64,000 bases of DNA from Antedon mediterranea (taxonomy: Eukaryota; Animalia; Echinodermata): positions 24,632,871 through 24,696,870 of the forward strand of contig NC_092676.1 of NCBI RefSeq assembly GCF_964355755.1, in the 5' to 3' direction. Made by a program: the position numbers and the translations under genes. The notes below the pieces were generated by a model, which was not told the DNA's origin, did no database searches, and worked only from the letters and a program-made list of their open reading frames with translations. Shown piece after piece: positions 31,801 through 59,635 of the stretch (position 1 is its first letter; every line of letters starts with the position of its first letter).

Positions 31801-34180
31801 AATTTACCTGTTAATTACGTAAACTTGTTGTTTTTGGCTCAAATTTTCGACTTAAAGTGAATAACTTTAATTATTACTTTGATATGGCCACTTTAAATTT
31901 AGAATATTTTGAGACTTCAGTGGCGTATCCAGTAGGGGGGCCGGGGGGGGGGGGGCCCGGGCCCCCCCTGATTTCGTTTCCGTCGGCACATCATCGCGGC
32001 CGTCGGCAAACAAAGGTGCCGGGGAAAAAAATAAACTATTTATTCTGACAATAATTGAACTGTAAACATAATTCTTTTGAGTGTTTGTTTATTTACATAT
32101 CATATCATCATTGATCCTTTCAGATCAACTATTTTTTATTTTCATTACATCTAACGAAACACGTTAAAAATGTGTAGCACGTACGTACGGCCGTACGCGG
32201 TAGATTGTTTACTCAAAAGTCTTTGACCTTACCCTAAAACCTTGTTTTTGCATGCAGTTGAGCCTCTCATGACCTGAGATTTGTATGTCTTTCCTACGCT
32301 AAGAGATTATATAGTTCCACATGCCATGTGCTTTTTTGTCTAAGATATATTTATTATAAGTGCCAAAAACCCGTTTTTTTTCTCGATATGAGGCCTTTAT
32401 TATTCAAAATTTTTAAAGAAAAAGCACATATACCATAAAAAATATCCATGTATTTCATTTTTGGAACAGAATATTCTGTGAGGCTCAACGAAAAAACCAC
32501 CATTTTGTGATATGATGTCATCGTAAGCCAATCAAAGCTGAGCTTTCTCGCGATTGGCATTGCTCACGGTTGAATGATTTAGGATTCTAGCTGATTTGAT
32601 TGGTGGATGCGAATCACCCGCAGCGGAATGCTTTCTCTCGCGCGTGTACCATGAATCTCTCTGATCGTTACTACACAAAGTTGAGCAATGAATTTGTCCG
32701 AATTCCGTTAAGTAAACAACTTTATATATTTTATAAGCATTTAATAACATGTTTTATTGATATTTCCAATGGTGGTATATAAAATAAATTACTAAAGAAC
32801 GTAATTTTATGTAATTATTTTAACCAAACATGGCGTAGTTAATAGAATTGTCGACTGAGGCCGCAATTTTTTTTACTTCTTTCGTGGCTAAAAACGATCA
32901 TTTTCGGCGATGTTTTAGACCCTATATTTCGAAAACTACAAGTCAGATTTTCCTAATTCTTTCTTTATTGTAATATGAATACAACATACTAACAGATAAT
33001 GTTGGTTTGGTTTTAATTTTGCATCGTTATCCCATATAAGACAAAGACAATATGACTATGTAATCCTAGAACATATATTGATCAGACAGAGACGTTGTGT
33101 ATGTACAGATAATGACACCAATTTTGTCCGCAAATTGGCAATTCCCGGCCCCCCCCCCCCCAACTTCAAAATCCTGGATACGCCACTCCTTCATTTTGTT
33201 GTGTTTCAAGGGACAATACATCTTTAAATATTTTTACCAACTACAACTTGTTTTCTTACGACCACCTTTAATGTCCTTTGAAGCTGAAAATCCTGCCAAG
33301 ATATGCCTACTCCTTACGACCATTTATATGTATACTTGACGATGATTTTGAGCCTACCCTGAACAACGATTTAGACCAAAATATTGACGATCGACGTTCT
33401 AGCCCTGCACCAACAAGGACAACACCTACTAGTCCTTGTAAGTCTTTCTTTATTTGATTCATCCAGTTATTTCTTGGTCTTCCTACGGGTCGTTTTACTT
33501 TCCTGTTAGTTTCCTTCATTGTTTGTTTGATTGGGGTATCATCCGGTAATCTGTGTCCATACCATTTTAGTCTCCTTCGTTTAATTCTTACTCAATTCTT
33601 CTTGTTTTGTTATCTCGTATATTTTCGTGTTACACACTCTATCTGTTAATTTAATATCTATCATCTTTCGCAACATTTTCCTGTGATATATATCTATACT
33701 CTCTTGTAATTTTTTGTTTAGTACCCAGAGTTCACTGTTATATAAGAAAATACTTGTTTATGTATGCGTCAAACAAACGGGATTTCACGTCTATAGACAT
33801 CGTTTTGTGTTCTAGCGACGACTTCAGCTTGTTATATGCCATAGCTGCTAGTGATTTTCTTCTTTTAATGTCTTTTTCTGTGTCCAAGTTACTACCGAGG
33901 TATTTGCATTCTTCCCATTTACTATCGGTGTTTCTTCCTATTAGGTATTCTTCTGTTTTACTTTCGTTTCAACGAAGCGTAACCAACAGAAATAACATAG
34001 CGTTTTCACAGGATTTCAGGACACCATGTTAATTAAAAAATAGTAATATAGCTTTTTGTTAGTTGTGACCTTGACATATGAACTTTTCCTCTCAAATTCG
34101 AACTCGTCCGAGCTTTTGGGGCATAGATCATTGTGGCCAAATTTGGTGAGCACCGGGTAAAAACTGTGGCCTCCAGGCAG

Positions 34181-38255: not shown

Positions 38256-40790
38256 ATGTGGCAAGGAACATCTGGAAGTCCAAAGCTAGGTCGAGCAGAA
38301 AGGGGAAAGCTACAGAGACCAACAAGTTTTAATCCCCCTCACACCCCACAAGCATTAGGCCTACCTCAACAGCACTCTACTAGGCACACACTAGACCGTA
38401 ATCGAAAGATAGGCCTAGTAAGCTACGGACCAAATTATGGTCGCAGCAAACCACAACAGAGGCATAAAGCCAGCTACAGTGGTGGAATCCGCCAACAACC
38501 AGTACTACCTCAGGTAAAAGAAGCATTTAATGGTTCTAAGGGCGATCTCTTCAGTCAAAGACTAGTCTCCCAGAAGGCCTAGTTATAATCAGTGGCTGTA
38601 ATGGACTAGTACACTGGTTTGACCTACTCGTCTCGAAAGATGTACAGTACTATGTTCTTTGCACATTAGCTAGATGTGTACAATGGACCTACAGTTTATA
38701 GTCCTTATCCAAGAAGACTCGTTCTACCACCAAAACGAGTGAGCCTTGAACCCTTGCAGATGTTATGGCTACGTAAATACGTTTCCACTTGACCGCTCGG
38801 CCACTCACTCAATAACATATAAATGCATTATACTTTGTTTATTGATGATTGTTTACTTGAATACTATATACTTGCAGGTGAAGTTGCCAGAGCTGCCAGT
38901 CCCATGCACTGAACACACATTCCTGACGGATGCTTCTGAAGTCCGTCACATGGAAGAGGGTCTTACACAACTTCTTACAGACTTCCATAATGGAAAATTA
39001 AGAGCCTTCAGTGGTAAGTAATTAGGTTAAATCAGGAATGTTTCTTAAATAGAACTTGGTTAAATCCAAAGTCTGGTATTTTATACTGAATCCTTAATGG
39101 TGTCAGAAGGAAAGGGGGAACCTAGATAAAGTTTGTTTACCAAGTTTTGAATTTAACTATTTTATTTAAAGTTGTGTCTACACTATCAAACTATTTTGAC
39201 AAAAAAAGTGCGATGTGTCCAAATATGGTAGTGATAATGTCCAAATATGGTAGTGATATGACATCACCATGTCCATATATGGGCACATCACATTTTGTTG
39301 TTACATAAAGTTTTATAGTGTAGACAGAGCTTTAGAAAAGCCACTGTTGATATTCATGTACAAATTTTTTCTATTGTAATGTTAACAAATTGTCTACACT
39401 ATCAAACTTTATGTGACAAAAACGCCAAATATTGTAGTGACATGACATCATCGTTTCCATATATGAGGACATCACATTTTTTGTTACAAAGTTTGATAGT
39501 ATAGACAGAGCTTATAGTAAGAACACAAATCATAGTAGAATGTGACAACATCGTAACAATTACTTTTGTTAATATTTGTAGATGACACATGCTCGTTTCA
39601 AAAGATGGAAAATATTCGAGATCTTCAAGAGAAATTATCACGATTGCATTTTGACATGGATGCTAAAATGCAAGAACATGAGTAAGTTATATAATTTTAA
39701 ATTAAATTCTACTACAATATTTATTTTTCAATACCAATCATTTTATTACATAACACTACAGTACAACCTGTTTGGGATATCTCTATTGAAGTCTTGTCTA
39801 CACTATTGATTGTGTCCATATATGGTAGTGCTATGCTTAAATATGGTAGTGATAGGACATCATTGTGTCCATATATGGGCACATCACACTTTTTTGACAC
39901 ATAAAGTTTGATAGCGTAGACAAGATTTTAGATGGTTTTGTGTTTGTTTCAGGTCTACCGTAATTTATCTATGGTTCAGATGTAAATCTTGCTATATAAT
40001 TTTCAAGTTTTTTTAGTTTATATCATGTGTTAATAATAAATATTTTTTTTTAGATTTGGTTCTGAGAAAGCGAGAGAAGCAGCTAACCAAAGTATGGATC
40101 ACCTACTTTCCAATGTAAGTTACCTTTAGAATTCTCAACCAAAGAGCTTTCAATTTGCGACGACCAATGACTAAACTATGTAATTTTAGTGTGTCTTTGC
40201 TCCTCATGTTAACGCAAATTTGATGGTTTTCTGACAACACATCGATTGACCTGACCTAGGTCGGTCGTCAATCCTTGGTTGTCTCAAATCGAAAGCTCTT
40301 TATTATTTTCCCAGGCTACAGGTAATGGGCTAGTTACTTCTGCCCAGGACGTTAAGTTTTTTCTGTATATGTGTTTGTCTGAACAGCCTAATGGGCCACA
40401 GTTTTTATCAGACACTTGTCAAATTACAATGTTCTGCCAACATATTAAAGGTTAAAGGTCTTTCCAAACTTGACTACAATGTTCCGCGACCAAATATATT
40501 GTGATTAAGTCATATTTTGTTCGTCGTTAAATCTAAATTTTAAATATTTTATTGTTCTGGCAGTTAAACCAGCTGAGCATGGCAGTGTATCCTTCATAAG
40601 ATTATAATATTTTGAGGAGGTGAGGGTGGTTTATTTATTAAATTTTTCTATTGTAGAATTGTAAAAAAAGTGTGTTTTTTTTTCTATCTCTTCATTGTGT
40701 TTATAAGCTTTTTAACTCTAAGAAGAAAAATCAATTCTTTCTTAACTAAAAACTATCAGACATAGCATGCAGTCACATAATGATTGTTAA
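38256..40790 (+). CDS. CCDC28: Coiled-coil domain-containing protein 28 (CCDC28A/B orthologue), 202 aa (exons 38256-38513, 38878-39013, 39582-39681, 40054-40114, 40564-40586, 40760-40790)
   Basis: HTFLTDASEVRHMEEGLTQLLTDFHNGKLRAFS, CSFQKMENIRDLQEKLSRLHF and ANQSMDHLLSNLNQLSMAV match the recalled CCDC28 core (HSFLTDV..MERGLL.LLNDFHSGKLQAFG...CSFEQ.EHVREMQEKLARL). The 609-nt frame closes. Probable 5' non-coding exon donor at about 37587. Confidence 0.9.
40142..40280. mobile_element. Small MITE-like element in CCDC28 intron
   Basis: Imperfect TIR AAGAGCTTTCAATTTGCGACGACCAA...TTGGTTGTCTCAAATCGAAAGCTCTT. Confidence 0.6.
40587..40759 (+). other. U12-type (minor spliceosome) GT-AG intron, 173 bp, last intron of CCDC28
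   Basis: Donor GTATCCTT, branch site TTTCTTAAC about 13 nt before the AG, and no polypyrimidine tract (TAAAAACTATCAG). Splicing here restores the frame to the stop at 40788-40790. Confidence 0.88.
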
Positions 40791-42255: not shown

Positions 42256-45200
42256 TTATTTTTTGATAACCATGTGTTCTGGGCCGTACGGAAAATGAGT
42301 AATGTTCTCGCAGCCGTCTTCTGTAACCACTATAACGTCATGTTCCCGATATCCGCCGGCAGCAGGATGTGTCTCTGGAAGTGCGATCATTGGTTCAAGT
42401 GACATTACCATGTTAGGCTCCAAAACAGTGTCAATGTCTTCACGAAATTCAAGAGCTAAAATTAAAATATTATAAATAATGTGAGAAACTTATAGCAAAT
42501 GTATTTTATTCACACCACGATCGCACGATCGTTTCTGGGAATGGTCAATATAGAATACTCTGTTATACACTCTTCGTCGAGGAGTCGGCGAATGTTGACA
42601 CAGTAATTATGTAAATGGGGAATAACCTGCGACTTGCAGCCTGCTGGGCTGAATTGCGCACAGGTGTGGACGACACACGCCACAACTGTCTACTCCCCTA
42701 AGGGTCCCTTCGTGTTGATTGCTACTACCAAACGGCGCCCGTTGGTCTTACCACAACGACAGGAGCTGAATGGACCAGTGCACTGGGGCAACCCTCTACT
42801 CTTACGCAAGATGTACTGGGTTCTTTAAAGTGCACACGAGCCAGATGTGTATACACTGGACCTCCAGTTTTTGAGTCCTTATCAGAGAAGATTTGTTCTA
42901 CCACCAGAACAATTTATTTTATTTATTTTATTTTATGTCTTTAGGCAATGTGGCCAAGGATTACCAATAGTGAATTAATCACTGTCCTATCAGATAGGTG
43001 GTAATCCCCCTGATACAGGGGCTATTGTGTGAACCAGTTCACCGGGGTAACCCCCTACTCTTTTTCGAATAATGAACTGGGTTTCTTTAAAGTACACACA
43101 GGTTATAACTGTGTACACTGGACCTACGACAATGGTCGAGGAGTGCCTTAAACCTGTGCCGATTGTATAGCTACTACAGCTACAGCTAGAATGACTACTC
43201 GATTCAAGGTTGTTACTGTGTTCCCAATTGACCTCGAAAGCTAAACTGGAAATGGAGAGGAAGAAAATAAATGGTAACACAAAGATTGTAGCACCACCAC
43301 CGGATTCAAGTCGAGTGCAGTTATATCCGAACGGTTAAAGGAAGAGGCGCAGCAAATCATGGCCTCGATGTAGCCACAAAATCGACACAGGTTGTTCAAT
43401 GCGCACCTATTGACCATGTGATAGAGAATAGATCTATTAATTTACATTCACAGGTGATTATTAATTCAGTGAGAAGTAATACCTGCTTCACGGCCATAGT
43501 AGTGGCTCAACACACCAAACGAATGACCGTATCCAAATGAACGGTATTGGAGAAGGTCATATGATTTGTACACTTCGTTCATTCCATGAGCCACATCTTT
43601 ACACTTTGCTCCGGGCTTTATCAGCTCCTTGCCCGTTTCGAATACTTTACAGTTCGCCTCCCAAACACGAAGGTGATCGTCTGAGACGTGGTCCAGGAAT
43701 ACATTTCTCTCAAGTGCTGAATAGTATCTAAAATGTCATGGAGAATAATTGATAAAGAGGCTTAATTTTTGTTTAAAAGCTGTTAACACCGGCCGATAAT
43801 GGACTAAAATATCGTAAATTTATTCTTTAAAAACATGTTATGATTCAATATCGTATATTGTAACGTAATTTGGATTATAGAATTATTAGATGTTGTGGTA
43901 CATGTATGTCGTAGACTCTCTTTTCCCAGACGGGCTCTGGGGTGTGCGCATGCCCACTCCGAGTTTCCAAATAGTAGTAAACTATAAGCTACCGCATGGT
44001 TACTGTTTCCTAATGCTTCCGTTCTTTTGAATAATTGCCTAAAGAAGCGGCACGAAAAACATAAACGGAATTTTCAGTTACCCTTAACTATAATTAATAA
44101 AGTTAATAAATTATGTACACTAACCCCGCCATCATTGGAAAACAGTTCATGACACAAATGTCGCCCTTTTTAACTTTTCGACTGGTGACAGGATTGTGAC
44201 AATTCTCGGAATTAAAATGTCCAGATTGGAACCAAGACCATGCTAAGGATTAAAAAAATATTAAAATAATAATATCCAACATAGTCTCTTCTTAAATATG
44301 TATTGTTGCCCTGGGGACACATCCTTTGGGGACACCTCCTTTGGGGACACCTCCTTCGAGGACACATCCTCTGGAGACATCTCCTTTGGGGACACCTCCT
44401 TTGTGGACACATCCTCTGGGGATATCTCCTTTTGGGACACATCCATCGAGGACACATCCTCTGTGGACATCTCCTTTGGGGACACCTCCTTTGGAGACAC
44501 CTCCTTTGGGGACACCTCCTTTGGGGACACCTCCTCTGGAGACACATCCTCTGGGGAAACCTCCTCTGGGGACACCTCTATCAGGGAACACTTTCCCGTG
44601 CTACAAGCAAAAGAAAATGTCTGTACGCTACTTACTGTCTTGAAGAGCAATATTCGGACGGCTTTTGGCGATTTCTTTCACCATCGTTTGAACAGCGTGC
44701 AGAGCAATCTCGTGCTCGCCTACACCTTCAGCAAGTGCTTCAATAATCGCTCCACCACCAATGTCCGCAATCCGAGCCCCTTCTTTGATGAGCGCTATCT
44801 CCTCATTCGATTTCACCATCCGTAAATACATGGCGGAATGTCCAATATCTACCACTGTGCTGTCCGGCAAGGCAGTTTGAAGTTTTTGGAAACTATCCAT
44901 ATTGATGTCATCAAATTCACAACCGACTTTTCCTTTTATTTCACCAAGTTCTTGGTACACAGCTCTGTAGTAGTTGTCGCGGTGCCAGTCAGTGTAAATT
45001 ATATTATCACCGACCGTTTTACGCCACGGATAGGCCCCGTTGACTTTGGCAGAAATTGTGACAACTTTGTCTTGTGTAACCACTAACCCATACGGACGGC
45101 CAAAATGACAATACATATAGTCGGAGTAATAATTGACATTGTGATACGAGGTGAATAGCACGCCATTTATATTTTCGGTTTCCATTAGTTTTCGTAATTT

Positions 45201-45982
45201 ACTGATTCTTCCACTCATTTCTGCTTTAGTGAATGTGCTCTCGATCTATAAAATTAAAATATTTATCGTTGGTTAGTAGACCTATACTGTATTTAAATTG
45301 GGACTAGTCTGCTCCAAACTGCCATATTCGGCCCTCTTTGTTGAAGCCACACTATTTAGGCCTAAAGGCGTTTCACATGAAAAGGTTTTTTCTTTTCAAG
45401 TTGGCGCGTAAGACTGCCAAACCGTCATATCTTTCACACAAAAACAACATCTGACCAGGGAGTGGAAGCAGCGAGAAGTAAAGAAGGGAGATTTCGGTTT
45501 TGGCCTACCTTCTCACTCGCATTGAACAAAGTGTTTAAACGTCACTCGTTAAATTCTGTGCCTACAAGAATGATTAATTATCACAATTTTGACACCATCC
45601 CTCATCGTGACGACTAACCGTCATTATGCGTTGTAATAATTCAGTGCAGCCTCTTCGATTTAGGCCTATCTTCTCCTTATTATAGTCGTCACAATCACAT
45701 TCTCTCGCCATCGACCATTCTCCTCGACTCACCATCACCTATCCTTTATAATAAATTCCCATCGTAGGCCTAATATATGAAACTATACTACTAAAGGCCT
45801 ACCTTTTCACCATTTTGGAGTTTTAAAGTGCGAGGCATGTTTTTATTAAACGCTGAATATTCTGGTTGCATCGATAGTCCTCGCCGCACACAACGCCGCA
45901 ACATTGTTGTCAACTTGACAGAACGGCAGACGTCCGATCCATACTTTATGTAAGAAGCAAGCTTAAACCGTTGTAAATACAT
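42256..45982 (-). CDS. Creatinase (creatine amidinohydrolase, M24 pita-bread fold)-like gene, paralog A, about 450 aa (exons 45803-45982, 44636-45245, 44125-44242, 43483-43727, 42256-42455)
   Basis: Spliced ORF of 1353 nt: FTSYHNVNYYSD, FGRPYGLVVT, YTDWHRDNYY, GARIADIGG, WSWFQSG, NCFPMMAGYYSALER, FGYGHSFGVLSHYYGREA, GGYREHD, ENITHFPYGPE. Colinear with Pseudomonas putida creatinase as recalled. Arg-rich N-terminal extension. Confidence 0.92.
42600..43130. mobile_element. SINE-like fragments in creatinase A intron 4 (related fragment at about 38690-38800)
   Basis: Twice-repeated block CCCTACTCTT...ACTGGGTT(T)CTTTAAAGT(G/A)CAC...TACACTGGACCT...AGTCCTTATCC, a dispersed repeat seen three times in the window. 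Confidence 0.5.
44312..44591. repeat. Minisatellite, 15-bp unit GGGGACACCTCCTTT (variants), about 18 copies, in creatinase A intron 2
   Basis: Direct reading. It yields stop-free repetitive ORFs in all six frames. Confidence 0.95.
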
Positions 45983-47368
45983 TTCTAAAAAGTAGAGCCA
46001 AAATAATTCACTTTCTAAAATTAAAATTAATATGCATGAATGATAAACCCAGTCTTTTTATACGGCATCATCTGTTGAGAGATCATGATGTCATCATTCT
46101 GCATGGCATAAACAGCCGGCTTAACGAAAGAATCATTACTTCAAATGCTCATGGCTGTTTTTGTTTAGATTTTTTTTTTACAATATTTATTTTGTATTTA
46201 TTTATTTAATCACACCCTTGTTTACAAGACCAACCAATTCTGGCTTATGAGTGAACCATGGACGTATATTGTATACCTCCACGAGTGAAAAATATAAAAT
46301 AGCAATTCAAATAGAAACATGTACTCAAAATACAATATAAAATAGCAATTTAAATAGATACATGTACTCAAAATTCACAATAACAATAACAAACTGGTTT
46401 GTAAACTGGTTTACAAAAATATAGCCCCTGTATCAGGGGGATTACCACCTATCTGATAGGACAGTGATTCATTTACTATTGGTAATCTTTGGCCACATTG
46501 CCTAAAGACATAAAATTAAAAAACATTACAAATAAAGTGGCCACGCACAAGAGTAAATATCTGATTCAAACATAAACAAAAACAACATTTAACTGGATAA
46601 TTATTAAATGTAAGCTATAATTTTAATCGATTATAAGAGGGAAGTAAGACTAAACCAAGCAGAATTGCTGTATTCATACGTAGTTGTGTCATGTTTGTAT
46701 ATACACATTCATATTTGTTATCTAGTTAAAGCGTGGTTTCCACCTAAAACGCAACGCAGCGATGTATCGACGCAAAGTGCTGTATTAACGTAATCACAAG
46801 TGGGAACCGACGACGCAACAGTGCTGCAAAAATCGAAAATTGATTTCACGCAGGCGGGGGAAAACACAATTATTGGAAGGGTATTTTCTTACATTGTGTA
46901 GGTTGCGTTAGGTTGCGTCGCTAGTGGGAACCAAGCTTTACTTTGCAGATAACTGAAATAAAAACCAAACATCTATATATCAATCAATCAATATAATAAT
47001 ATTTTACATCTCCCTGCTGTAATGTTGGCATATCTACCACAAGCATTATGCTTTTTTGTTATCATGCGTCTTCAAATGTTTTTTTTTTCACCTTCATCTG
47101 GTTTAACTGTCTTTATTGAAGTAAATGAATGTGAATTTGAATGAATGAATTGAATTGTTAGATTATGGTGATAGACACCTATAATAATCCTCGAAGGTTT
47201 CCAAAGCCTATGTTAAAGTGAACGGTTGTCTTTTAACAACAGCTTATTGTGCCACCAAGGGTGCACCGAAGCTAATTTTAAGGTCAAAACGAGATCACAT
47301 TTAATTCTGCACGCTATAATAAAAGAAAAGAAAAAAAAATGTACACAGAATAAATAAACATTTATTCC

Positions 47369-47638
47369 TTATGACCATTTCCGCTCAGGATAGATACATA
47401 TTTTAGAGCAAAAGAGAAGCTACGCGGTTTTCCGCTTACCGTTACCGTCCGTGTGAATTGGCATTTACACAGCAGACGAGCGGTAACGTTAATAAACATA
47501 TAGAATCTTATTCCTCTTATGACCATTTACACACAACACGGAGCGGACGGGTGATTTCCGCTTAGGATAGATACAGATTCTAAAGGACAGGCTACGTGGT
47601 TTCCGCTTATTACCGCTCGTCTGTGTGAATTGGTCTTA
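47369..47638. mobile_element. Degenerate Harbinger-type MITE(s) (GACCATTTACACA...TGTGTGAATTGGTC); related pieces at about 53983-54024 and about 57143-57270
   Basis: Inverted ends, internal CCGCTTACCGTTACCG motifs, and an internal direct duplication. Confidence 0.55.
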
Positions 47639-48066
47639 GATTTATGACCCGCGTTAAATAGGCCTACATGTTGGCGCGTTCAACTGAAATAAAATTGTAT
47701 CAATGGTAATTTTGAAACTAAGTAAAAGCGCTGGTAGGCCCACATTGCGTGGTTTTAGTCGAGTAAAGCTCGAGTCCCACGATCTGGTTTTTTCTTCTGT
47801 CTTCCAAAGGGACTTGTATTGATTGATAGGACGTCATGAGAAGAGTGTTGCAATCCCACAGTCATTTCTTCACTTGGTCACTAATGACCTACTTTTTGAA
47901 TAGAATGTCATAAGCTTGCAATTTAGGGACAATCTTTGTATATTGTAGGTATTCAAGGATTGACCTTGTCAACCATTGTGTAAATACTTTCTCTGCTCTC
48001 TGCTTTGCTATTCATTTATCATTTAGAATTCAATTGTGATATTGTATATTCTTAATACAAATCGAA

Positions 48067-48270
48067 ATGGATTTAGTCTTACTTTCGAAAGTTTTGATCA
48101 TTTTGTATATGGTAAGAGAACTAAATAAACGCAAGCAGAAGAAAAAACGATTGCAAAAGAAACGCAGTGTGTGGGTGAAAACATGGATACAGCGGCGAAA
48201 ATCCCATGGAGCATACCATGATTTAATAAAGGAACTGGAAGTAGAAGACATAGAAAAATATAATAATTTT
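48067..48270 (+). pseudogene. N-terminal fragment of a Harbinger/HARBI1-type transposase
   Basis: KKRSVWVKTWIQRRKSHGAYHDLIKELEVEDIEKYNNF matches the R.WV..W..RR...G.Y..L..EL...D...F/Y pattern. It is truncated into AT-rich DNA with no DDE core. Confidence 0.7.
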
Positions 48271-48929
48271 ATCTATAATTATATATAAATATATAATATA
48301 TTATGACTTTTAATAACACTTTATAATCTTTGTATTCCATTCAACTCCTAACTAAAGTTATTTCAGGTGTCTATAATCATTTTTTGCTTTTTTTTCGACA
48401 AAAATATGGGAATGATGGGAAATGAGATTAATTATCACATACACGTACTGTTCCGCACAGTTCCAATTGCTTTTTTTTTTTGGAGAAAACATATCGTATA
48501 TTGTTAAAACAAATTGAGATTTTAAGATACAGTTTTATATTAACGATAAGATAAGGAAGAGAAAACAGTTTAGTTTATGCAGAATCTTTCAACAAAACTG
48601 ATGATCCGTTTCTGCTGCAAACTTTCAAAAGAATTACCATACGAAACCCGGTTTGGTGGAAAAAAAAAACGCGTTGCTACCGAACCGTTTAAAACCGATT
48701 GAATCTGAATCAATTGAGGTTTTAAACCCGTATTTAAAAAATAGGTTCTTTTTATGTGGACGGACCCGTTTCTACTATATAACAAGAAAAGACCATTATT
48801 TTAAAACGGTATATAAAATTCAAATCCGTATATAAATCATAAGGAATTGATTAAAGGAATAAAATTGGTAATTTTCTGTTGCTTGCCAGGACGGTCAATG
48901 TGTCGTCCGCCGCCTCACCCCAAGGTATA

Positions 48930-49330
48930 GTTGGACATTTGGTAGAGTAGGCTAATATTCTATACTATCATGGAGGTCTATACTGTGTTGGACATTTAGT
49001 AGAGTAGGCTACTGTTCTATACTATCATGGAGGTCTATACTGTGTTGGACATTTAGTAGAGTAGGCTACTGTTCTATACTATCATGGAGGTCTATACTGT
49101 GTTGGACATTTAGTAGAGTAGGCTACTGTTCTATACTATCATGGAGGTTTATACTGTGTTGGACATTTAGTAGAGTAGGCTACTATACTATACTATCATG
49201 GAGGTCTATACTGTGCTAGACATTTAGTAGAGTAGGCTACTATACTATACTATCATGGAGGTCTATACTGTGCTAGACATTTAGTAGAGTAGGCTACTAT
49301 ACTATACTATCATGGAGGTCTATACTGTGC
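48930..49330. repeat. Minisatellite, 57-bp unit (TGTTGGACATTTAGTAGAGTAGGCTACT...ATCATGGAGGTCTATACTG), about 7 copies; a lone partial unit at about 52166-52210
   Basis: Direct reading; variants change progressively along the array. Confidence 0.95.
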
Positions 49331-51822
49331 CAATAGGGTTGGTGAGATCTGTCCATAATAGGTTACTTTTCTGTCCATAATAGGTTACTTTCTGTCCATA
49401 ATAGCAAAGACTATATATCACAAGAATGAGTATTCCGCGATTTTTGCATGAGAAATTTGTAACAGAGAGCTTCAGTGAGTGATGGCCGCCCTCATAAGGG
49501 CGGATGTATACATACTAAATAAGACTTGATTTAATAGATATTATACACATTAAATAGAATTATGATAATAGTTTTTGCAATTATAAACTATTTTATAATA
49601 CATATTTATTAACAAACTAGTATACATTCACTTTTACAGACAATTATTTAGTAACATGCTAAGTTAGTTCACAAAAAAGGCCTAACACAGCAACACCAAA
49701 AATCAACGGATCGTTACTACTCAGCGTGGCCTATTCTTTACCATTGCCGTGTACTAGTCTACGCCCGGTAAATTAAGTATTGCTTTTATGATATAAATTA
49801 GTATAAAATACATGTTATTAATAGGACAAAATGTTAAATGTCATTAACATTTATTTGTTTTCCAGAAACAAGTTAAATATAGGAATATTATTAATGATCC
49901 TTCGTGAAAACGCGTAAACACCAACACGCCCGGTCACGCTATCGTAGCGCCCGGTTGATAAAGCAAACTGTTTATACGGCAGTTTTTACTAAATAAATTG
50001 CATAAAACAAACAATTAAATATCCAAATAGTATTTAACATGATGTTGGCATGTAGTTGATAACATTTTTTATCATGAAAATACTACCGGTGGTCTAGCCT
50101 TTGATTATTGAAACCGTCACAAAAAGTTGGGTATTGACAAACTTGCAAGCCATGGATTCATTGGAGTCAGTGGAGTCAACGGCCCACGTGACCATGTTAA
50201 GTGCAATTCAAGCGAGTCAGTACGAAGTGTACTGCACTATTGTAAAAAAGTGCTAGGCACCATAAAACATATTAAATAATTTAATACAGTATAATCTAGT
50301 ATGTTCATATTAAATTATTATATGAAACATCAGAGAGGAGTAATTATAAAATAAAATCATTATTTTATGTTATGTTGTTCTAAACATACCCTACTAGTAG
50401 TACTACTAAAATAAAGACAAGCCTGCCTGCTGCTCCCTTCTTGTTGGTCTCGCTTGTAGTTATTTTTTTTTCAAAATGTCCCCCGCCGGCCCACCACACA
50501 GCCCAGGCCTAGTCTAGCCCCTAATACAATATACAATACAATATAGGGCTTCCTACTACTAGATGATATTTTGTTGAAAAAAATACGTTTCACAAGACTT
50601 CCCTGGTTCATTCCCGGGTTTCGGCACCAAAAGTTATGTCACCGTCGGAACTCGTCCAATGGGTAATAATTTAGTAGAAGCGATAAATATGTGGGAGAAG
50701 CGAATAAGACTGAGTTTAATAATGAAGGTCCTAGTTCAAACACTGGACAGACAGAAAAGGAGACTATAACTGAATGCAACTATGTATTTTATTGTTAAGT
50801 TTAGAATTTAGTTTCAATGTCACAATTATTATTATTTTTACAACATTTGCTATTATCACAAAATGGCCGTATAAGTATTACAAAATGACAAAAGACGGAA
50901 TATAAGTAAGTTTAACAATAATAAACAGATGTCAGATATTAAACGCAATCAATAAAACGATCAACTTGATTCAACCAAAGCTGTTTTAAAATACTATTTA
51001 GGCCTATTATAATTTAATCAATATTATTAAGGAAACAAATCAGAATTTAAAATGTAAATTAATTAAACCAACACAGCCCCTCTACAGTAGTGAGATTAAA
51101 AGCGGTTCAGACCCCTTTAGAATATGAAAGTTTTTATGACAAATAAACATGAGACTAGATGAGTGATATCGGAGGATTAATTCGTCGATGGTAACGGCAT
51201 GGACGACAGGACTATCTATCACTGCCTTCTTCCGTACCCCAAATGTAACATGAGTAAGTAAGTATGAGGGCGCGATTAATGACTAAAATATACCCTCACA
51301 CGTGCATGTTTATATCTATCTAATGTTAAAGAGTTAATACGGGCACCAGTGCTGCAGGTGGGCACCAGCCGTGCATTTTTATATCTATCTGATTCTGATG
51401 TTAAATAGTTAATATTATACCAGTGCTGCAGATGGGCACCAGCCGTGCATTTAATAATGTGTACATAAATCTCATAATATAGTTTATATGGGCACCATTC
51501 TTGTACGAGTAACATATTTATGTGTCCTATATCTGCAGTTCTGAATGTGAAAACAATTGGTGGGTCATTTATATTTGTTTTGTTTTCTTTATGGATTCAA
51601 TATTTCGTAATGTCATCAATAAAAATTACTAGCTAAAAACCCTAAACCATCATTATGCTAATTATAGTTACATAATAGTTATTATATAACACCTATATAA
51701 ATTCCTGTCATTTGATTGGACGAATGTGGGTCACATGGCGTGCAATAGTACGCACTATTCAACGATCGTTAAATAGTACTTTTTGAAACATTTTTGTGTA
51801 CGAAAAAAAAACGTCTAGATGT

Positions 51823-51995
51823 TATATAAAACAAATAATGAATGTTTTGTATTCGTGTAATGGTACAAATAATGGCACTTGGTGAATGATGAAAGGTTAT
51901 ATCAACTCGCCTTTGCCTCGTTGATATAACCTTTCATCATTCACCTCGTGCCATTATTTGTACCATTGCACTCATAAACATTCATTATTTGTATA
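51823..51995. repeat. About 170-bp imperfect palindrome (hairpin element, possibly non-autonomous Crypton-like)
   Basis: About 80-bp arms (AAATAATGAATGTTT...ATGATGAAAGGTTATATCAAC / GTTGATATAACCTTTCATCAT...AAACATTCATTATTT) around the loop TCGCCTTTGCCTC. Family assignment is tentative. Confidence 0.7.
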
Positions 51996-54900
51996 CTATC
52001 CCATAGTCTAGAATTTATTAGTAACTGTAAAGCCTACGGAATCGAGAAGCTGCAGGCTGAATCGTCTTGGTCTGCTGGGTTTTGATAAATGAATATTCAA
52101 ATAGTACCTGCTCATTAATATTCATAACCTGCACGACTGGTGCCCATATAACGCTTACCTCTACGGTGCTGGACATTTAGTAGAGTAGGCTACTATACTG
52201 TACTGTCATAATAGACATAACACATAACAATAGAATGTAATAGTAAAAGACATTTGGTTACAGTGTAATACGTACCTATGTTAGCAGACTGAGTATGAGT
52301 ACCGTGTTTCGTAGACCTTCTGTTACTACGATCGTGGACCTATAATAGGTTCATGCTTCGATGATTCTGTATTCATTTCTTCTAATACCGCTCACGTATT
52401 TTGGATTTGAGTCTAATCCGATATGCTTGGATGGATGGATGACACCTCTACAACCGGTTTAAACTCCTTCGTGGTGGTGCGCGCATAGTCTGGGCCCCAG
52501 ACGGAGTTTTTTCTTAATATTAGTAAAAATATAAATATTTTTGCACATATGGCGTTTCATACGTGTATTACTTGAGTTTGGATACTCCGTCTGGGGAAAC
52601 ACGCAAAAGTCACGTGGTTTGACACCAAGAATTCTTGGTGCATAGATTATCCGGTTGACTAGTTTCAGCTGCATGCGATTGGCTACTCACTCGTACACTG
52701 TTTTAATATTCATGTTTCAGAATTTCAAAGACTCAACAACTAAGAAGGTACACATGCGCTATGTTACGTTTAGACAATGTGTACTTGGGTACATTAATAA
52801 AAGTTTCTGAAGGCTAGAAATGATTTTATAACATTTGATGGGATTTTTCCCAAGAAAACTCGTCTTGCTTCTCCGCAAATCAAACATTGAATGAACATTT
52901 AATATTACGCGGAGATAATTTGATTTAATTCCCACTCAGACCCTGTCCTGTTCTGTGTAGTGGTGTACAACTCCCTGGACTGATGTAGCCCTGTCTGTTG
53001 TGTGCCGGTGGTGGTATGTAGGCCTACCTTATTGGTGTTTTATTTGGCAGGTCATACGTGCGAGTTGAGTAGGACCTACGAAGGAGGCCTAGGCTAAGGA
53101 CTAAACAATTTATAAACAAAACAACTTGGCAACACGATTTCATATTTCAACAGTCTCGATCGTACATTCAGCACTGTACGTACTCGATCTTTTTCATTTT
53201 GAAACAAAATGATCATTGGTTGATTCGAAATCCATATTTACATACCGCCCGCCCCATATAGCCAAATACGGTATGATAACCTACGTCATTCTTATTGGAT
53301 GTTTGCGGTCTGCAAATCGATTTCTATACGTGTTTCACAAGTCTGTATTTTCAGACAAAAATCGCGGTCGAAATAAAAACAAATAAATAAAAATAAAAAA
53401 CAATACAGACTTAGGGCAAGTCTAGTGCGCGCACTACCGCCTCAATGAATTGTAAGGGAGTAAACTTGTATACTATTCTTCGGAGGAATATATTTAAGGT
53501 ACATCTTTTTGTAGGCCTATTATTTGCCTTTTTTTGTGTCACTGTCACAGCGTACCCAGATGAAAGAAAAACAAACTCAAAGTTTAATAGAACTGAGACA
53601 CTAGAAACGCGTAACAAAATATATACTGAATAATAGTCGTACAGAATCTATATTTACTTTGAATGAACATTCCTCTCGCTATCTCCCCCCCCCCCCTGCA
53701 CTATTAGTGATATTCCGGTTTTTTTTATGATATTAGCGCAAATAATTGTCAATTATGTTGGGCCTCAGAATCTTTTAAATATTATATTATTATTAGAAAC
53801 TTTGGACTTTTGTCAAGTCATTACAATGGTATAAACGTAGGTCTCGAGTACACCAGCAGTGAAGTCAACTGATACTAAGTATCCGTTAATGACAGTCATT
53901 GTGTCTTCAGAAGAAGACGGCGGCGACAAGAATAATAGAACATTTAACAGTAAAAACTGATGGTGGGACACAAGCTACACAATTTTCCGCTTACCGTTAC
54001 CGCTCCTTTGTGTAATTGGCCTTAACACACCACAAAATGCAAAGTAAAGTACACTCAGATACCATTTTTCAGTGCAATTTATTTCAACAAAAATCTACAT
54101 TAAAAAGCAAAATTATAACTTCTATAATAATTAGGTTTCCATGATTGAAAGAGGGCGCTGTCACACGTATCGAACCAGAGCCATAAATGGCTCTGGATCG
54201 AACGCTCCTATTAATCTGCTATACGTGCCTAAATTATCTACAATTTAAAATAAAAAAACAAGTAGCCATAAGCACTAATTCTACAGATCTACAAGTGATT
54301 AAAAAAAACAACTAGCTATCTATTATTTACGTTGGCTAACAAATATTAATTAATAAAAACTATAAAATGAAAAAAAAGTGCATCATGTTTCAAACGGTGC
54401 TAGAGGAACACACTAAACTCTATGACATGCACACTTAAGAAGATCACCAATCATTTTTCTAATGTCCTAGTAAATAATAAGTAGGCCTAAATATTTTCCA
54501 TACACAACTAAATCGATGTATTTTCTATTAATAAATCAAGAGGATAATAACGATATCCGCATTACAGAACAAAATAGTTTTTATAAAGCAGCATTTGGAA
54601 GCATTATATTACCTCTGGACAGTTTTTCTATTTTATACAAGAGAAAAATGGATAACACAATTTGCAGCAATTTGTGTGGTATAGACAAGCGGTATCGTGT
54701 ACAGACATCGTCCATAACGAAATACCCTTAAAAAAAAACAAGCGCATAAGAAATCAGCTGACGTGGTGGAAAAAATCTTAACATTACTTCTAACGTAGCA
54801 AACCATCGCGCATGCGTTATAATGCCAAGGTAAATCTATCCGTACAATAAATGGACGCACTGCCGATGGATAAATAGACCGATAGACAAGATAGCAATCT

Positions 54901-55926
54901 GAAAACGCCTTTCTAACAAGAAAAGCTAATTTCGATCGTAGGCATGCCGATAATTTAAACTACTTCTACTTTAGAGTCCTGAGTTGTCCTGTCGCAATTT
55001 GGGAAAATAAACGGTCACAAATTAAGTGCGTTATATTTTTCACTTTCTTTCTATTCTAGTTGCAGCATGTAATTGTTTGTGGTGTTTGAGTCATTGTTAG
55101 TTCACAAAAATAAGCAAGCTTATAGGGTAGGGTGCGATACTAAACAGTGAGTCTAATTAAGCTTAAATTTAGTAAGTCTAGGAAGGATAGGCCTAGATAC
55201 TCTGTGACATGAAGAATCCCAAACCTAAAATGTAACACAAAATTGGTAACAAAAAAATGTGCTAGGCCTAATAAGAATCAATAGTTACCATATAAACATA
55301 ATTTTCCTTCATAATTATGATCCTTATTCTACTTATTAATCGTTAATAAATTGACATTATATTTCATACTGAAATTATTCTACGTTAATTTAAATTCGTT
55401 TCTACATCAATTTACATCATTATTGATAAATAGTATATAGTGTAGGCCTAAATGTACGAAATTAATATTGTGCAGCACTCATTCCTATTCAAAACTATGA
55501 TTTGAACCGGGCTACGGTGGTTTGGAAAACTTGCACACACTTTGATGATCAGTAACTTAACTTACTGCAGCAGTAAAAAACTTAATGCAGCAGTAAAAAA
55601 CTAACTGCAGCAGTCATGTAACTAGAAAAAAACTACGAAACACAATCCTACAATAATTCCTAAAAATCAAAATAAATATTTCAGCTTTACTGGTTTTTTT
55701 TTTTTAGCAAAATTTAAAAAAAATTGCTAAAACATTAATAACTACATAGAAATAACAATACGAATTTCAAAGCTTTAGATTGAGAGAGAATTTCAGTGCG
55801 CGAATGGGGAACTACGTAAGTATGGGAATGATGAGAAATGAGATTAATGATCACACATGCACGTACTGCCTGTTACAGCGCACAGTTCCAATTGGAAACG
55901 TCTAAGACAGGTTATTGTGTTTAGGT

Positions 55927-58900
55927 CTACTTCTTGACAATGTTATGCTTAGGTCCGTACGGGAAATGCGTGATGTTTTCCGCACCATCTTCCGTGACTA
56001 CGAGAATATTGTGTTCGCGGTAACCTCCTGCGCCTGGCTCTCCCTCCGGTAGCATCACCGTCGGCTCAATAGACACTACCATGTTTGGTTTTAAAACTGT
56101 TTCAATATCTTCGCGGATCTCAAGTGCTAAAAAAAAAGGTATAAAATAGGTAAGTGAATACAGTATAGTCATTATTAGATAGAGGTCGCTCTTTTAATTT
56201 GAGCCGGTACATGTCTAGTTAAAGTGCAGAACAATTAGTCTTCTCGTGAGGTCCATCTTGATCGTGTCTTGAACCCAATGCATTCATTGGAAATAGTAGT
56301 GTTGTTGATTCTGTACGATTTTATTAAGGCCAATTCAGACAACGTCTTGACACGTCGGTGCTGTCTGAGTTGAATCCCGACGGGACAAGTCTTGAGATAG
56401 CGTCGGGCGCAGTGTTTAGATCGTCGAGAGATTTTATATTTAATTTTCTCCTGACGAGACGACTCGCCGGGTCTTGTCGTACGACGCTGTCTGAGTTTGC
56501 CTTTAGAAAATGACGGGGAATATTTTTATTCGGGATGATAGAGAAAATGATAATTTTACCTGCTTCTCGTCCGTAGTAGTGACACAGGACGCCAAATGAG
56601 TGACCATAACCGAATGTACGGCGATGCAGAAGGTTGTGTTTCTCGTAGACCAGGTTCATTTCTTTCGCTATTTCGCTACACTTAATACCAGGTTTGATAA
56701 GTTTCATGCCGGCTTCATGTACCTCGCAATTGGCCTCCCATACACGCATTGATGCATCTGGTACATGGTCAAGGAATAACGTACGTTCTAGAGCTGTATA
56801 GTATCTAAGATATAAAAACAAACACATTGTTATACTTCATTGATTTGGTGATGCTTATAGTAATGCTAGGTTTTAGGTTTAAGTCTGTGTAAACTAAAGA
56901 TGCTTTAATTGAGATACCACGTATGCATTTAATCGCTCCTATGAACGTAACCTAACTTATGATCATATTAGGGCAATGTACAATATTTCTCATGGATATA
57001 TTATTACTATAATCACATCAGTAGCACAACTTCGTTTTGCGTACAAGGGTATGCGTAAAACAAGAAATATCAAGAAGAAGTAGCTTTATTGTACTGATAA
57101 TACGTACGATGTTAATATAATATCAACAAACTAAATCGCTATAAAGGCGAATTTACAGATAAATTATAGATTTACAGAAAACGCGGAGCGGAAGGGCGGC
57201 GGCGGTTGAGCGGAAAGCCGCTCTGGATAGATATAGATTCTACGTGGAACAAGCACGCGGTTGCCTTTAAGCTACCAGTACATTTCAATGGTTGGCCTAG
57301 TTGTAAATGAACTAGATTTTTGAAAACCTACCCTCCCATCATCGGGAAACAGTTCATACTGCACACGTCTCCTTTCTGTAGTTTACGAGTTGTGACTGGA
57401 TTGTGGGCACCGTCGGTGTTTATACCAGATTGAAACCATGTCCATGCTAAAAAAACAAAAGTGTAAATAAATATACATATATATTATTGTATGGTTGAGA
57501 ATAATGTAAGCGGATAAAACAAATTAGCGTCGTTTGTGTAGGCTGTTCGAAATTTACCTTTAATGGAGTGGTATTATACTACTAAAACATTATTTTTCGA
57601 CAAAAAATCATATCGAAAGAAACAACAGTATGAGCAGAGAAGAGTGTAATTGGTCAGATTGTTTACCTTTCTCTGACGTCAGAGTAGGGCAAACTTCTGA
57701 CTAAAAGCTTGACATAAATATAAGTCGCAGTCTGTAAAAAATTATTATCCAGTTTTAATTTATTTATTGTACTTACTGTCCTGTAACGTCATATTCGGTC
57801 GACTTCTGGCAATCTCTCTGATCATAGTCTGGGTACAATGCAACGCTACCTCATGCTCGCCGACACCTTCGGCCATTGCCTCAACGACCGCTCCGCCTCC
57901 AATATCTGCAATCCGTGCCCCCTCCTTGATATGAGCTATCTCTTCATCCGATTTGATCATGCGCAGGTACATCGTGGGTTCACCGACGTCAACCATTGTG
58001 CTCTTTGGCAGGGCGTCTGTAAGTTTCTTATAGTTGTCTAAATTGATATGGTCAAATTCACATCCTATTTTACCATACTGTCCAAGTTCTTGTTTCACAG
58101 CCTGGTAGTAATTATTTCGTTGCCAGTCCGTATATACTATGTTATCACCATTAGCAGTCCAACGCCATGGATAACCGCCATCGATATTGGCAGAAATCGA
58201 GAGTATTTTATCGTGAGTTACCACTAAGCCATAGGGTCGGCCAAACTCACAGTATAAGAAGTCGGAGTAATAGTTAATGTTGTGATGTGATGTAAATATG
58301 ACGCCATCGATGTTGTCTTTCGACATTAAATTGCGTAGTTTTGTGATCCTTGATTCCATTTCCCCTTTAGAAAACGTGCCCTTCGCCTAAAAGTTAAAGA
58401 AAAAAAAAACATGAATTTAGAAATATCGGACATGGTACCATAGAGATTTATGCTCAATAGATATGAGATGTGTGTCATGTACGAGTGCTACGGGTACGAA
58501 TAACTATAATTATTACGGGGTTCCACAAAAACAGGGTGCACAGTTCGATTCAAATATGTTTCATTATTTTGAGGGTCACTGTTAACTGAAAATCAGATTT
58601 GGCAATTATTATCGGGGAGGGGTGGGGGCGATGCGTGTGCATGAGTCCCATTCCTAAAAAATATATCGACGCATGACTTGATTGTACATGAAGAGGATCA
58701 TAGGTTATCACCCAAGTCACTTATATTGTTTGCCATATAAGGTTGAGTGATATTTGCACTATCGTTATAAAATAACTTAGTTCAATTACAGATAAAGAAT
58801 ATGACAATGTGATATCCAGGTACCGATATTGATTTAATTGTTCAAAAATTCTGCATAGCATTTTGGTTGACTTCATTTATTTTAATAGACTGAAAACTAT

Positions 58901-59635
58901 GATTTTAGATGGGTATAACTTAACCATATTCGGCTTAAAATTAATATGGCCTAAATGATTTGTATATGAAGTGATACACAAACAAGACCCGCTTATAGAA
59001 TGTGCATTTCAAAAAAACTTAAGTGCGGAAGCGAACGTCATCCAAAGGCTCTTTCCGGAGTCCTGAACGTTGGTGAGAAGATTTTTAAATGTTTTGAAAT
59101 GTAAAATTAAAAAGTAAATGGTTAAATTCAACCAAAAAACTGTTTTTTGCTTTAAATTACAGTTTTTAAGATACATTTTTGTTTTTGATCCAATTTTTGG
59201 ATACGGTACCGTAACTATTAGGTGACATTAAAATGGCATATTCAACAAAAACATTTTTTTTTAAATTAATTTTTTTCAGGGGGAAAATACATATATATGG
59301 TTATTATGGTTATGGTGTTTTATGTTTTGGTTTTTTTTTTTTGCTTTTTTAGGGACGTTATAGTGAAAGGACGAATAAAGTGCCAAATTTGCAATCAATA
59401 AACGTGCAGACATTTCGAGGTCAGATACTATCGATCGGAGACGGGATAAAATTAAGTTTAATCTTACCTTTTCCCCGTTCCTAATAGCAATGAGCGAGGG
59501 CATGTTATCAATATGCCATGTGTCTGTATGTGCCATTCGAACCCTAGACGTATGCTTAGTACCTTGATCATTCTGCAACAGGTTTCTAAAAAAACGAGTC
59601 GATAATCCGTGTCGTAAACGTGTAACTAGGCTCAT
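55927..59635 (-). CDS. Creatinase (creatine amidinohydrolase)-like gene, paralog B, 445 aa (exons 59468-59635, 57777-58386, 57332-57446, 56560-56804, 55927-56126)
   Basis: Spliced ORF of 1338 nt with near-verbatim bacterial creatinase motifs: HNINYYSDFLYCEFGRPYGLVVT, SISANIDGGYPWR, DNIVYTDWQR, TWTWFQSGINTDGAHNPVTTRK, YYTALERTLFLDH, RTFGYGHSFGVLCHYYGREA, LPEGEPGAGGYREH. Same four intron positions as paralog A. Probable upstream non-coding exon (donor at about 61120, acceptor at about 59645). Confidence 0.95.
56327..56502. mobile_element. Palindromic MITE in creatinase B intron 4
   Basis: AGGCCAATTCAGACA...TGTCTGAGTTTGCCT ends with TAA/TTA-like flanks and internal inverted CGTC/GACG motifs. 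Confidence 0.65.

What the first reader, a model, noticed from the sequence alone, without database searches (positions are those of the whole stretch)
42256..59635. Two intact, intron-containing animal genes encoding bacterial-type creatinase: a candidate creatine-catabolic pathway
Seen: two 5-exon ORFs align end to end with P. putida creatinase as I recall it. They are not the metal-dependent prolidase/aminopeptidase-P type, and they keep the creatinase residues Arg in FGRP, catalytic His in AHNP/CHNP, Glu in ALER and in S.EP, and Arg in YYGRE. They sit among ordinary metazoan genes and carry spliceosomal introns, so contamination is excluded. Established: creatinase (creatine to sarcosine + urea) is characterised in bacteria, and vertebrates lose creatine by non-enzymatic conversion to creatinine. 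Inference: this animal enzymatically recycles creatine with a gene that was either horizontally acquired and domesticated or anciently present and widely lost. Automated creatinase-like annotations may already exist in invertebrates, so novelty of the gene itself is not guaranteed.
Basis: partly seen in the sequence, partly recalled or inferred. Interest (0 to 1): 0.9.

Follow-up and report, generated by a model that had tools for sequence, protein, structure and literature searches.

The report
Old animal creatine-splitting enzyme, two copies
A feather star carries two intact, intron-containing genes for creatinase, an enzyme studied in bacteria; relatives in corals, sea anemones, sea urchins, acorn worms and a shrimp suggest an old, patchily kept animal gene that likely splits creatine into sarcosine and urea inside mitochondria, which is untested.

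Summary
Observation confirmed. Two minus-strand, five-exon genes (A 45982-42256, B 59635-55927) have GT-AG introns in the same phases and open frames. B equals a RefSeq protein already labelled 'creatinase-like', Antedon mediterranea. B matches solved creatinases at E 1e-181 and prolidases at 1e-22; it is 64.5% identical to P. putida creatinase and lacks three of five M24 metal ligands.

The gene is not a crinoid or ambulacrarian import. Named relatives occur in ten other echinoderms and hemichordates, eight anthozoans, Penaeus and a foraminiferan. Coral-type gene fragments break at the same intron codons, and a single animal origin is not rejected (p-AU 0.18). Ancient transfer versus ancient inheritance with losses is unresolved.

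New points: animal copies carry Arg-rich, acid-poor leaders, likely mitochondrial. Paralog A has a rewritten loop before the catalytic His, so its substrate may differ. No paper on animal creatinase was found; one key supplement was unreadable. RNA support is untested. The scan had noted only bacterial creatinases before.

The parts
59468..59635 (-). Gene B exon 1: Arg-rich leader (likely mitochondrial presequence) plus first creatinase residues
   Evidence: B equals P0001/XP_071957257.1
57777..58386 (-). Gene B exon 2: Creatinase_N domain with F62/R64 equivalents and start of the M24 (pita-bread) domain
57332..57446 (-). Gene B exon 3: canonical loop and catalytic His (P. putida H232 = H274), N249 in place of a metal Asp
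56560..56804 (-). Gene B exon 4: Y258, E262, H324, R335 equivalents
55927..56126 (-). Gene B exon 5: E358, H376 equivalents and stop
45803..45982 (-). Gene A exon 1; ATG at 45982 favoured (leader aligns weakly to Anneissia P0003), alternative ATG at 45904
44636..45245 (-). Gene A exon 2: Creatinase_N; changes I82V, D83N, G85A at near-invariant sites (P. putida numbering)
44125..44242 (-). Gene A exon 3: loop before the catalytic His rewritten (T228S, D229E, G230N, A231C, one extra residue); His kept
43483..43727 (-). Gene A exon 4: E262, H324, R335 kept; T264N, H285F
42256..42455 (-). Gene A exon 5: E358, H376 kept; stop
44312..44578 (.). 15-bp tandem repeat (about 18 copies) filling most of gene A intron 2

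Best explanation
These are two intact, intron-containing creatinase-family genes, likely from an old tandem duplication, in an animal branch that likely predates the cnidarian-bilaterian split; gene B likely encodes a metal-free creatinase predicted to enter mitochondria and split creatine into sarcosine and urea, and gene A is a diverged copy likely to have changed substrate or efficiency. Steps. (1) Shown: exon structure, family membership, retained catalytic set, loss of metal ligands. (2) Inferred: the Arg-rich leader takes the protein into the mitochondrial matrix. (3) Inferred from P. putida creatinase (mechanism recalled): a homodimer holds creatine's carboxylate with R64 of the partner subunit and R335, holds the amidino group with E262 and E358, and H232 activates water to release urea. 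(4) Inferred from general knowledge: matrix sarcosine dehydrogenase turns sarcosine into glycine and a folate one-carbon unit, so creatine from phosphagen turnover or food is recycled. (5) Origin: most likely one very old gain from marine bacteria followed by many losses; inheritance from early eukaryotes is not excluded.
For: E 1.1e-181 to PDB 1chm against 3.5e-22 to the best prolidase; the top 5 Foldseek rows for the model of B are creatinases. R64, H232, E262, R335 kept in 21 of 21 animal rows checked, E358 in 19 of 21; three of five prolidase metal ligands replaced as in P. putida. Named homologues in 10 other ambulacrarian species, 8 anthozoans, Penaeus vannamei and Bolivina argentea; ESM Atlas cluster of 118 members, 89% eukaryote. 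Careful ML tree: crinoids 100/100, echinoderms 97/81, hemichordates 100/100, cnidarian-containing clade 100/99; one animal clade not rejected, p-AU 0.179; with the Penaeus pair p-AU 0.94. Fragments break at the crinoid intron codons: 16 proteins at the intron-3 acceptor, including Desmophyllum P0315 and P0263 (100% identical to coral-clade P0432); 4 at the intron-2 donor, including P0377 (90% to P0481 in the cnidarian-containing clade). 18 of 18 named animal rows examined have 2 or more Arg and at most 1 acidic residue in the first 25. A versus B: synonymous sites saturated (pS 0.82), dN 0.21, both frames open.
Against: No activity, localisation or RNA data. Animals are one clade in only 46% of bootstrap trees and a few marine bacteria interleave. 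Shared introns are read from protein read-through, not from DNA; the search for coral genomic DNA returned only uninterrupted matches. The leader test is composition only; I chose rows with visible extensions, three database models lack one (Nematostella P0447, Acropora P0442, S. purpuratus P0202), and 3 of 10 bacterial extensions printed are also acid-free, though Lys-rich. A's product was not among the top 120, though it should rank high if held, so it may be unannotated or not expressed. Active-site roles are recalled; no paper text confirming them could be read.
Confidence: 0.68

Rival explanations
1. The enzymes, A above all, act on another guanidino compound of marine invertebrates (for example glycocyamine or taurocyamine) rather than creatine; A is a new-specificity paralog.
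For: A changes 18 of 144 columns that are at least 97% conserved in 372 other sequences, clustered before H232 and at D83/G85, yet keeps the catalytic set and an open frame. Other diverged animal copies exist: Apostichopus P0385 (21 changes), Anneissia P0004 (12). Penaeus holds a homologue although crustaceans use arginine phosphate (recalled).
Against: B differs at only 5 of 144 such columns and has the canonical loop; most hemichordate, urchin and coral copies differ at 0-5.
Confidence: 0.15
2. The gene was inherited from early eukaryotes (possibly with the mitochondrion) and lost many times; no animal-specific transfer took place.
For: A foraminiferan homologue and unnamed eukaryote-like fragments with leaders; animals plus the foraminiferan as one clade not rejected, p-AU 0.136; mitochondrial-type leaders throughout.
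Against: Animal sequences stay 57-65% identical to P. putida and sit inside the bacterial radiation near marine Proteobacteria and SAR324; no fungal, plant or other named protist hit appeared in the lists seen, which needs very many losses. The lists are capped and mostly unnamed, so this is weak.
Confidence: 0.25
3. Several independent bacterial transfers (cnidarians, ambulacrarians, decapods separately), or a transfer limited to crinoids or ambulacrarians.
For: Free trees leave cnidarians and ambulacrarians in a polytomy with bacteria; the Penaeus pair joined two bacteria in one quick tree.
Against: Same-codon, same-phase intron signatures in coral-type fragments; single origin not rejected; a crinoid-only or ambulacrarian-only event fits poorly with the anthozoan copies.
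Confidence: 0.1
4. Gene A is a decaying or silent copy.
For: Many changes at invariant sites; a repeat-filled intron 2; not returned by three protein searches.
Against: No stop or frameshift over five exons, all splice sites canonical, synonymous saturation with dN 0.21; catalytic residues kept.
Confidence: 0.15
5. Metal-dependent Xaa-Pro peptidase, or bacterial contamination.
For: Pfam gives only the shared Creatinase_N and Peptidase_M24 domains; NCBIfam gives sub-threshold peptidase and ectoine-hydrolase hits.
Against: Three of five metal ligands absent; creatinase hits about 160 orders of magnitude better; spliceosomal introns, animal neighbours, orthologues across animals.
Confidence: 0.01

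Closest known systems
Pseudomonas putida creatinase (creatine amidinohydrolase, EC 3.5.3.3; CREA_PSEPU, PDB 1CHM); also PDB 7YTO (Alcaligenes) and 1KP0 (Actinobacillus)
   Same: Two-domain Creatinase_N + pita-bread fold, end-to-end alignment, 64.5% (B) and 59.2% (A) identity, F62/R64/H232/Y258/E262/H324/R335/E358 kept, same loss of metal ligands.
   Different: Four spliceosomal introns; an N-terminal extension of about 40 residues that looks like a mitochondrial presequence; tandem paralogs; A has a rewritten loop before His232.
RefSeq/UniRef 'creatinase-like' or 'Creatinase' entries of invertebrates (Anneissia, Ptychodera, Saccoglossus 'Creatinase-like protein 228' APU50784.1, Strongylocentrotus, Nematostella, Pocillopora, Acropora)
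   Same: Same family; gene B is itself such an entry.
   Different: These are database labels; my searches found no paper that describes, dates or assays the animal family.
M24B prolidases / aminopeptidase P (e.g. PDB 5CDL) and ectoine hydrolase DoeA/EutD (PDB 6TWK)
   Same: Same fold and Pfam domains.
   Different: Only about 17-22% identity in the fold search; prolidase ligands D, D and E are N291, A302 and H418 in B; NCBIfam scores of single exons far below cut-offs.
Deuterostome microbial-like genes of Simakov et al. 2015 (PMC4729200)
   Same: Animal genes with introns that match marine bacteria far better than other animal proteins; same transfer-versus-loss question.
   Different: Those were defined as absent from non-deuterostome animals; creatinase is present in anthozoans and a crustacean, and is not in the main text or the two readable supplements.

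Membership tests
Creatinase (EC 3.5.3.3, M24 non-peptidase homologue) | Creatinase_N plus M24 domain over the full length, closest to solved creatinases | tested here: met
Creatinase (EC 3.5.3.3, M24 non-peptidase homologue) | Catalytic and binding residues R64, H232, E262, R335, E358 (roles recalled; positions computed on CREA_PSEPU) | tested here: met
   kept in A and B
Creatinase (EC 3.5.3.3, M24 non-peptidase homologue) | No binuclear metal site (N249, A260, H376 in place of D, D, E) | tested here: met
Creatinase (EC 3.5.3.3, M24 non-peptidase homologue) | Near-invariant loop before His232 (T228-D229-G230-A231) | tested here: inconclusive
   met in B, not in A (4 changes plus one inserted residue)
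Creatinase (EC 3.5.3.3, M24 non-peptidase homologue) | Hydrolyses creatine to sarcosine and urea | not testable with these tools
   needs an assay
Creatinase (EC 3.5.3.3, M24 non-peptidase homologue) | Homodimer with shared active sites | not tested
   no complex prediction run; a pass would follow from likeness to solved dimers
Xaa-Pro dipeptidase / aminopeptidase P (M24B) | Five metal ligands D, D, H, E, E | tested here: not met
   only H and one E kept
Mitochondrial matrix protein | Arg-rich, acid-poor cleavable presequence | tested here: inconclusive
   composition fits in 18 of 18 named animal rows examined, but no targeting predictor was available and some bacterial extensions are also basic
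Lineage-specific horizontally acquired gene | Absent from other animal lineages | tested here: not met
   anthozoan and crustacean homologues
Ancient horizontally acquired gene | Animal clade nested with support inside one bacterial group, apart from other eukaryotes | tested here: inconclusive
   nested near marine bacteria but backbone unresolved; foraminiferan placement open

The most novel reading that the evidence does not exclude
Early animals had an enzymatic mitochondrial creatine-to-sarcosine-plus-urea route, gained once from marine bacteria before cnidarians and bilaterians split. Corals, echinoderms, hemichordates and some crustaceans keep it and vertebrates lost it, which is why vertebrates shed creatine passively as creatinine. 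Diverged paralogs such as gene A have turned to other phosphagen-type guanidino compounds.
Probability: 0.35. Interest if true: 0.78.

Novelty: new member of a known kind. Interest (0 to 1): 0.52.

Why it matters
Creatine breakdown by creatinase is discussed as a microbial job, also in marine host-symbiont papers (PMC11812461 passages credit sponge symbionts). If B and its coral and sea-urchin relatives are active, many invertebrates can degrade creatine themselves. That would add a catabolic arm to the animal creatine-kinase system, a host source of urea (relevant to coral nitrogen cycling) and a candidate loss on the way to vertebrates. The claim can be tested with a standard urea or sarcosine assay on one recombinant protein. 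Animal creatinases are also an untapped pool for clinical creatinine assays, where creatinase is rate-limiting (PMC7568399 passages). The gene label itself is not new.

Tried and rejected
RNA support for the junctions was not obtained; no whole genome is held, so creatine kinase, AGAT/GAMT, sarcosine dehydrogenase and further copies elsewhere in this genome were not checked. The scan of metagenome contigs for coral genomic DNA with introns kept 80 of 562 relatives, all matching as one uninterrupted stretch. Whole-length tree with 10 fragments: careful search unfinished, and its 100-support join of N-terminal Penaeus-type with C-terminal Desmophyllum-type fragments rests on almost no shared columns, so it is discarded. 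The mixture-model careful tree was also unfinished; only its quick tree was read. FastTree with distant outgroups put the root between animal groups with weak support, not used for rooting. Automatic leader-length counts were faulty and are not used; only first-25 composition is. dN/dS could not be computed because synonymous sites are saturated. The AlphaFold model from a 15-row alignment is mediocre (mean pLDDT 70.8, active-site loops under 50) and was used only for fold identity. No complex prediction was run. Literature: creatinase+horizontal+invertebrate (7 papers, 6 listed), +deuterostome (0), +eukaryot+HGT (9, 8 listed), +sea urchin (1), +coral (15), +metazoa (11, 10 listed); none describes an animal creatinase by title or abstract start; one search listed 40 of 4,572 papers, none containing the word. 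Searches for active-site text failed.
Full report
Observation. Both genes are there. On the minus strand, gene B runs 59635-55927 and gene A 45982-42256, each with five coding exons; all 8 of 8 introns are GT-AG with phases 0,1,2,1 in both genes, and the spliced frames are open (445 aa; 450 or 424 aa), sharing 274 of 405 aligned residues. Spliced B matches P0001, which the sources name creatinase-like, Antedon mediterranea, XP_071957257.1. There is no third copy in the window. Flanking genes are animal-type: a dual-specificity phosphatase and CCDC28 and repeated MFS-transporter exons (1 of 5 exons tested hit Pfam). Introns of A and B have no BLASTN similarity and synonymous sites are saturated (pS 0.82) while dN is 0.21, so the duplication is old and both frames have been kept. 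A's leader aligns weakly to Anneissia P0003 (E 2e-4), favouring the ATG at 45982; one quick tree paired A with P0003, others did not.

Family. B hits the three solved creatinases at E 1e-181 to 1e-155 and the best prolidase at 3.5e-22; the top five Foldseek rows for its model are creatinases. Against Swiss-Prot P. putida creatinase (P0521) B is 64.5% and A 59.2% identical. R64, H232, E262 and R335 are kept in 21 of 21 animal rows checked and E358 in 19 of 21 (two Diadema copies have Val). The roles of these residues are recalled from the 1CHM literature, not read here; the positions were computed. Aligned to a prolidase, the ligands D, D and E correspond to N291, A302 and H418 of B, as in P. 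putida, so this is the metal-free type.

The two paralogs differ. Of 144 columns at least 97% conserved in 372 other creatinases, B departs at 5 and A at 18, including the four residues just before the catalytic His plus one inserted residue, D83N, G85A, T264N and H285F. Among the other 21 animal or animal-clade rows scored only Apostichopus P0385 (21) is as divergent. A's product did not appear in the top 120 of three searches, so it may be unannotated.

Range. Named homologues: Anneissia (3), Ptychodera (2), Glandiceps, Saccoglossus, Diadema (2 species), Lytechinus (2), Strongylocentrotus, Apostichopus; Pocillopora, Montipora, Oculina, Acropora (2), Nematostella, Actinia, Desmophyllum; Penaeus vannamei and the foraminiferan Bolivina argentea. 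Of the 20 eukaryote-looking hits I chose to look up, 4 carried a name; the rest are unnamed. An ESM Atlas cluster of 118 members is 89% eukaryotic. No chordate, insect, nematode, mollusc, sponge or fungal name appeared, but lists are capped at 120-150 rows and mostly unnamed, so this is no evidence of absence; that vertebrates lack the enzyme is recalled. About 5,300 prokaryotic stretches are estimated to match.

Origin. A careful ML tree of 48 rows (12 ambulacrarian, 8 cnidarian or unnamed, 28 bacterial, of which 26 were picked at 72% identity from my larger set) recovers crinoids, echinoids, echinoderms, hemichordates and a cnidarian-containing clade with strong support, Ambulacraria weakly (81/52), all in a polytomy with a few marine bacteria; animals are one clade in 46% of bootstrap trees. 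One animal clade is not rejected (p-AU 0.179), nor with the Penaeus pair (0.94) or the foraminiferan (0.136); none of this proves a clade. A second line comes from single-exon gene calls whose homology breaks at the crinoid intron codons with the read-through residue expected for the same phase: 16 proteins at the intron-3 acceptor (including Desmophyllum P0315 and P0263, 100% identical to coral-clade P0432), 14 of one unnamed cluster at the intron-3 donor, and 4 at the intron-2 donor (P0377 is 90% identical to P0481). This is inferred from proteins; the DNA was not seen. Together they favour one origin older than the cnidarian-bilaterian split, then losses. High identity to bacteria and nesting near marine Proteobacteria lean towards an ancient transfer, but inheritance from early eukaryotes stays open.

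Mechanism. The animal proteins carry N-terminal extensions (about 40 residues in B) absent from the solved enzymes. In 18 of 18 named animal rows and 8 of 8 unnamed eukaryote-like rows examined, the first 25 residues have at most one acidic residue and several basic ones; many have an Arg-x-aromatic/Leu-Ser motif of the kind cut by the mitochondrial peptidase (recalled). Three of ten bacterial extensions printed are also acid-free but Lys-rich, and three database models lack a leader. I infer matrix import, where sarcosine dehydrogenase works (recalled): creatine to sarcosine plus urea, then glycine and a one-carbon unit. No step after sequence is shown.

Prior art. Seven searches pairing creatinase with animal terms found no paper on an animal creatinase (listings and abstract starts only). 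Simakov 2015 (PMC4729200): abstract, passages and two of four supplements seen, no creatinase; its large supplementary PDF, which lists microbial-like genes, could not be read and may bear on novelty, since the Saccoglossus record has a curated-looking name. No 'creatin' in the main text or supplements of PMC4878875, in supplements of PMC13390645 and PMC7351957, or in the main text of PMC6006793 and bioRxiv 2022.05.18.492404 (that preprint's supplements were not seen). PMC7568399, PMC4108388 and PMC11812461: passages only. An old report of creatinase activity in human muscle is recalled, not checked. Earlier scan notes concern bacterial operons only.

Verdict. Real, intact, correctly identified and already labelled in databases; the recent-transfer story fails. 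What remains of interest is an apparently undescribed, old, likely mitochondrial animal creatinase family and a diverged paralog, both directly testable. Interest 0.52.

Noticed in passing
window 1-22032 (minus strand): Tandem array of at least three or four similar MFS transporter genes that look like SLC22 organic cation transporters (label recalled; Pfam Sugar_tr/MFS_1 for 1 of 5 exons tested), about 20 kb from the creatinases. Some SLC22 members carry creatine or creatinine (recalled); linkage is probably chance.
   Followed up: partly
window 23393-23968 (+): Long single-ORF dual-specificity phosphatase (DSPc, E 1e-35), with a further DUSP-like exon near 25055-25291.
   Followed up: partly
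window 38743-39018 (+): CCDC28 exon.
   Followed up: partly
window 42923-43025 and 46421-46523: 103-nt inverted repeat pair, 95% complementary, one arm in gene A intron 4 and one upstream of gene A; probably two copies of a small mobile element.
   Followed up: no
window 48930-49329 and 51850-51976: 57-bp tandem array (7 copies) and a 57-nt hairpin-like inverted repeat between the two genes.
   Followed up: no
window 9339-10046 (+) and 33310-33968 (-): Remnants that look like non-LTR retrotransposon reverse transcriptase C-termini (appearance; only a weak ALKBH8_N Pfam hit).
   Followed up: no
proteins P0195, P0196 (Diadema), P0385 (Apostichopus), P0315/P0287/P0291 (Desmophyllum type): Other animal paralogs with altered active sites: H324Y plus E358V in two Diadema copies, 21 changes in Apostichopus, and a second coral type with changed R335-region residues. 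Repeated divergence after duplication may mark new substrates or non-catalytic copies.
   Followed up: partly
L094 (1757 bp) and protein cluster of P0328: An unnamed marine transcript-like contig with a leader-bearing creatinase 70% like Pocillopora's, and a 33-member cluster of marine single-exon fragments of an unidentified eukaryote.
   Followed up: partly
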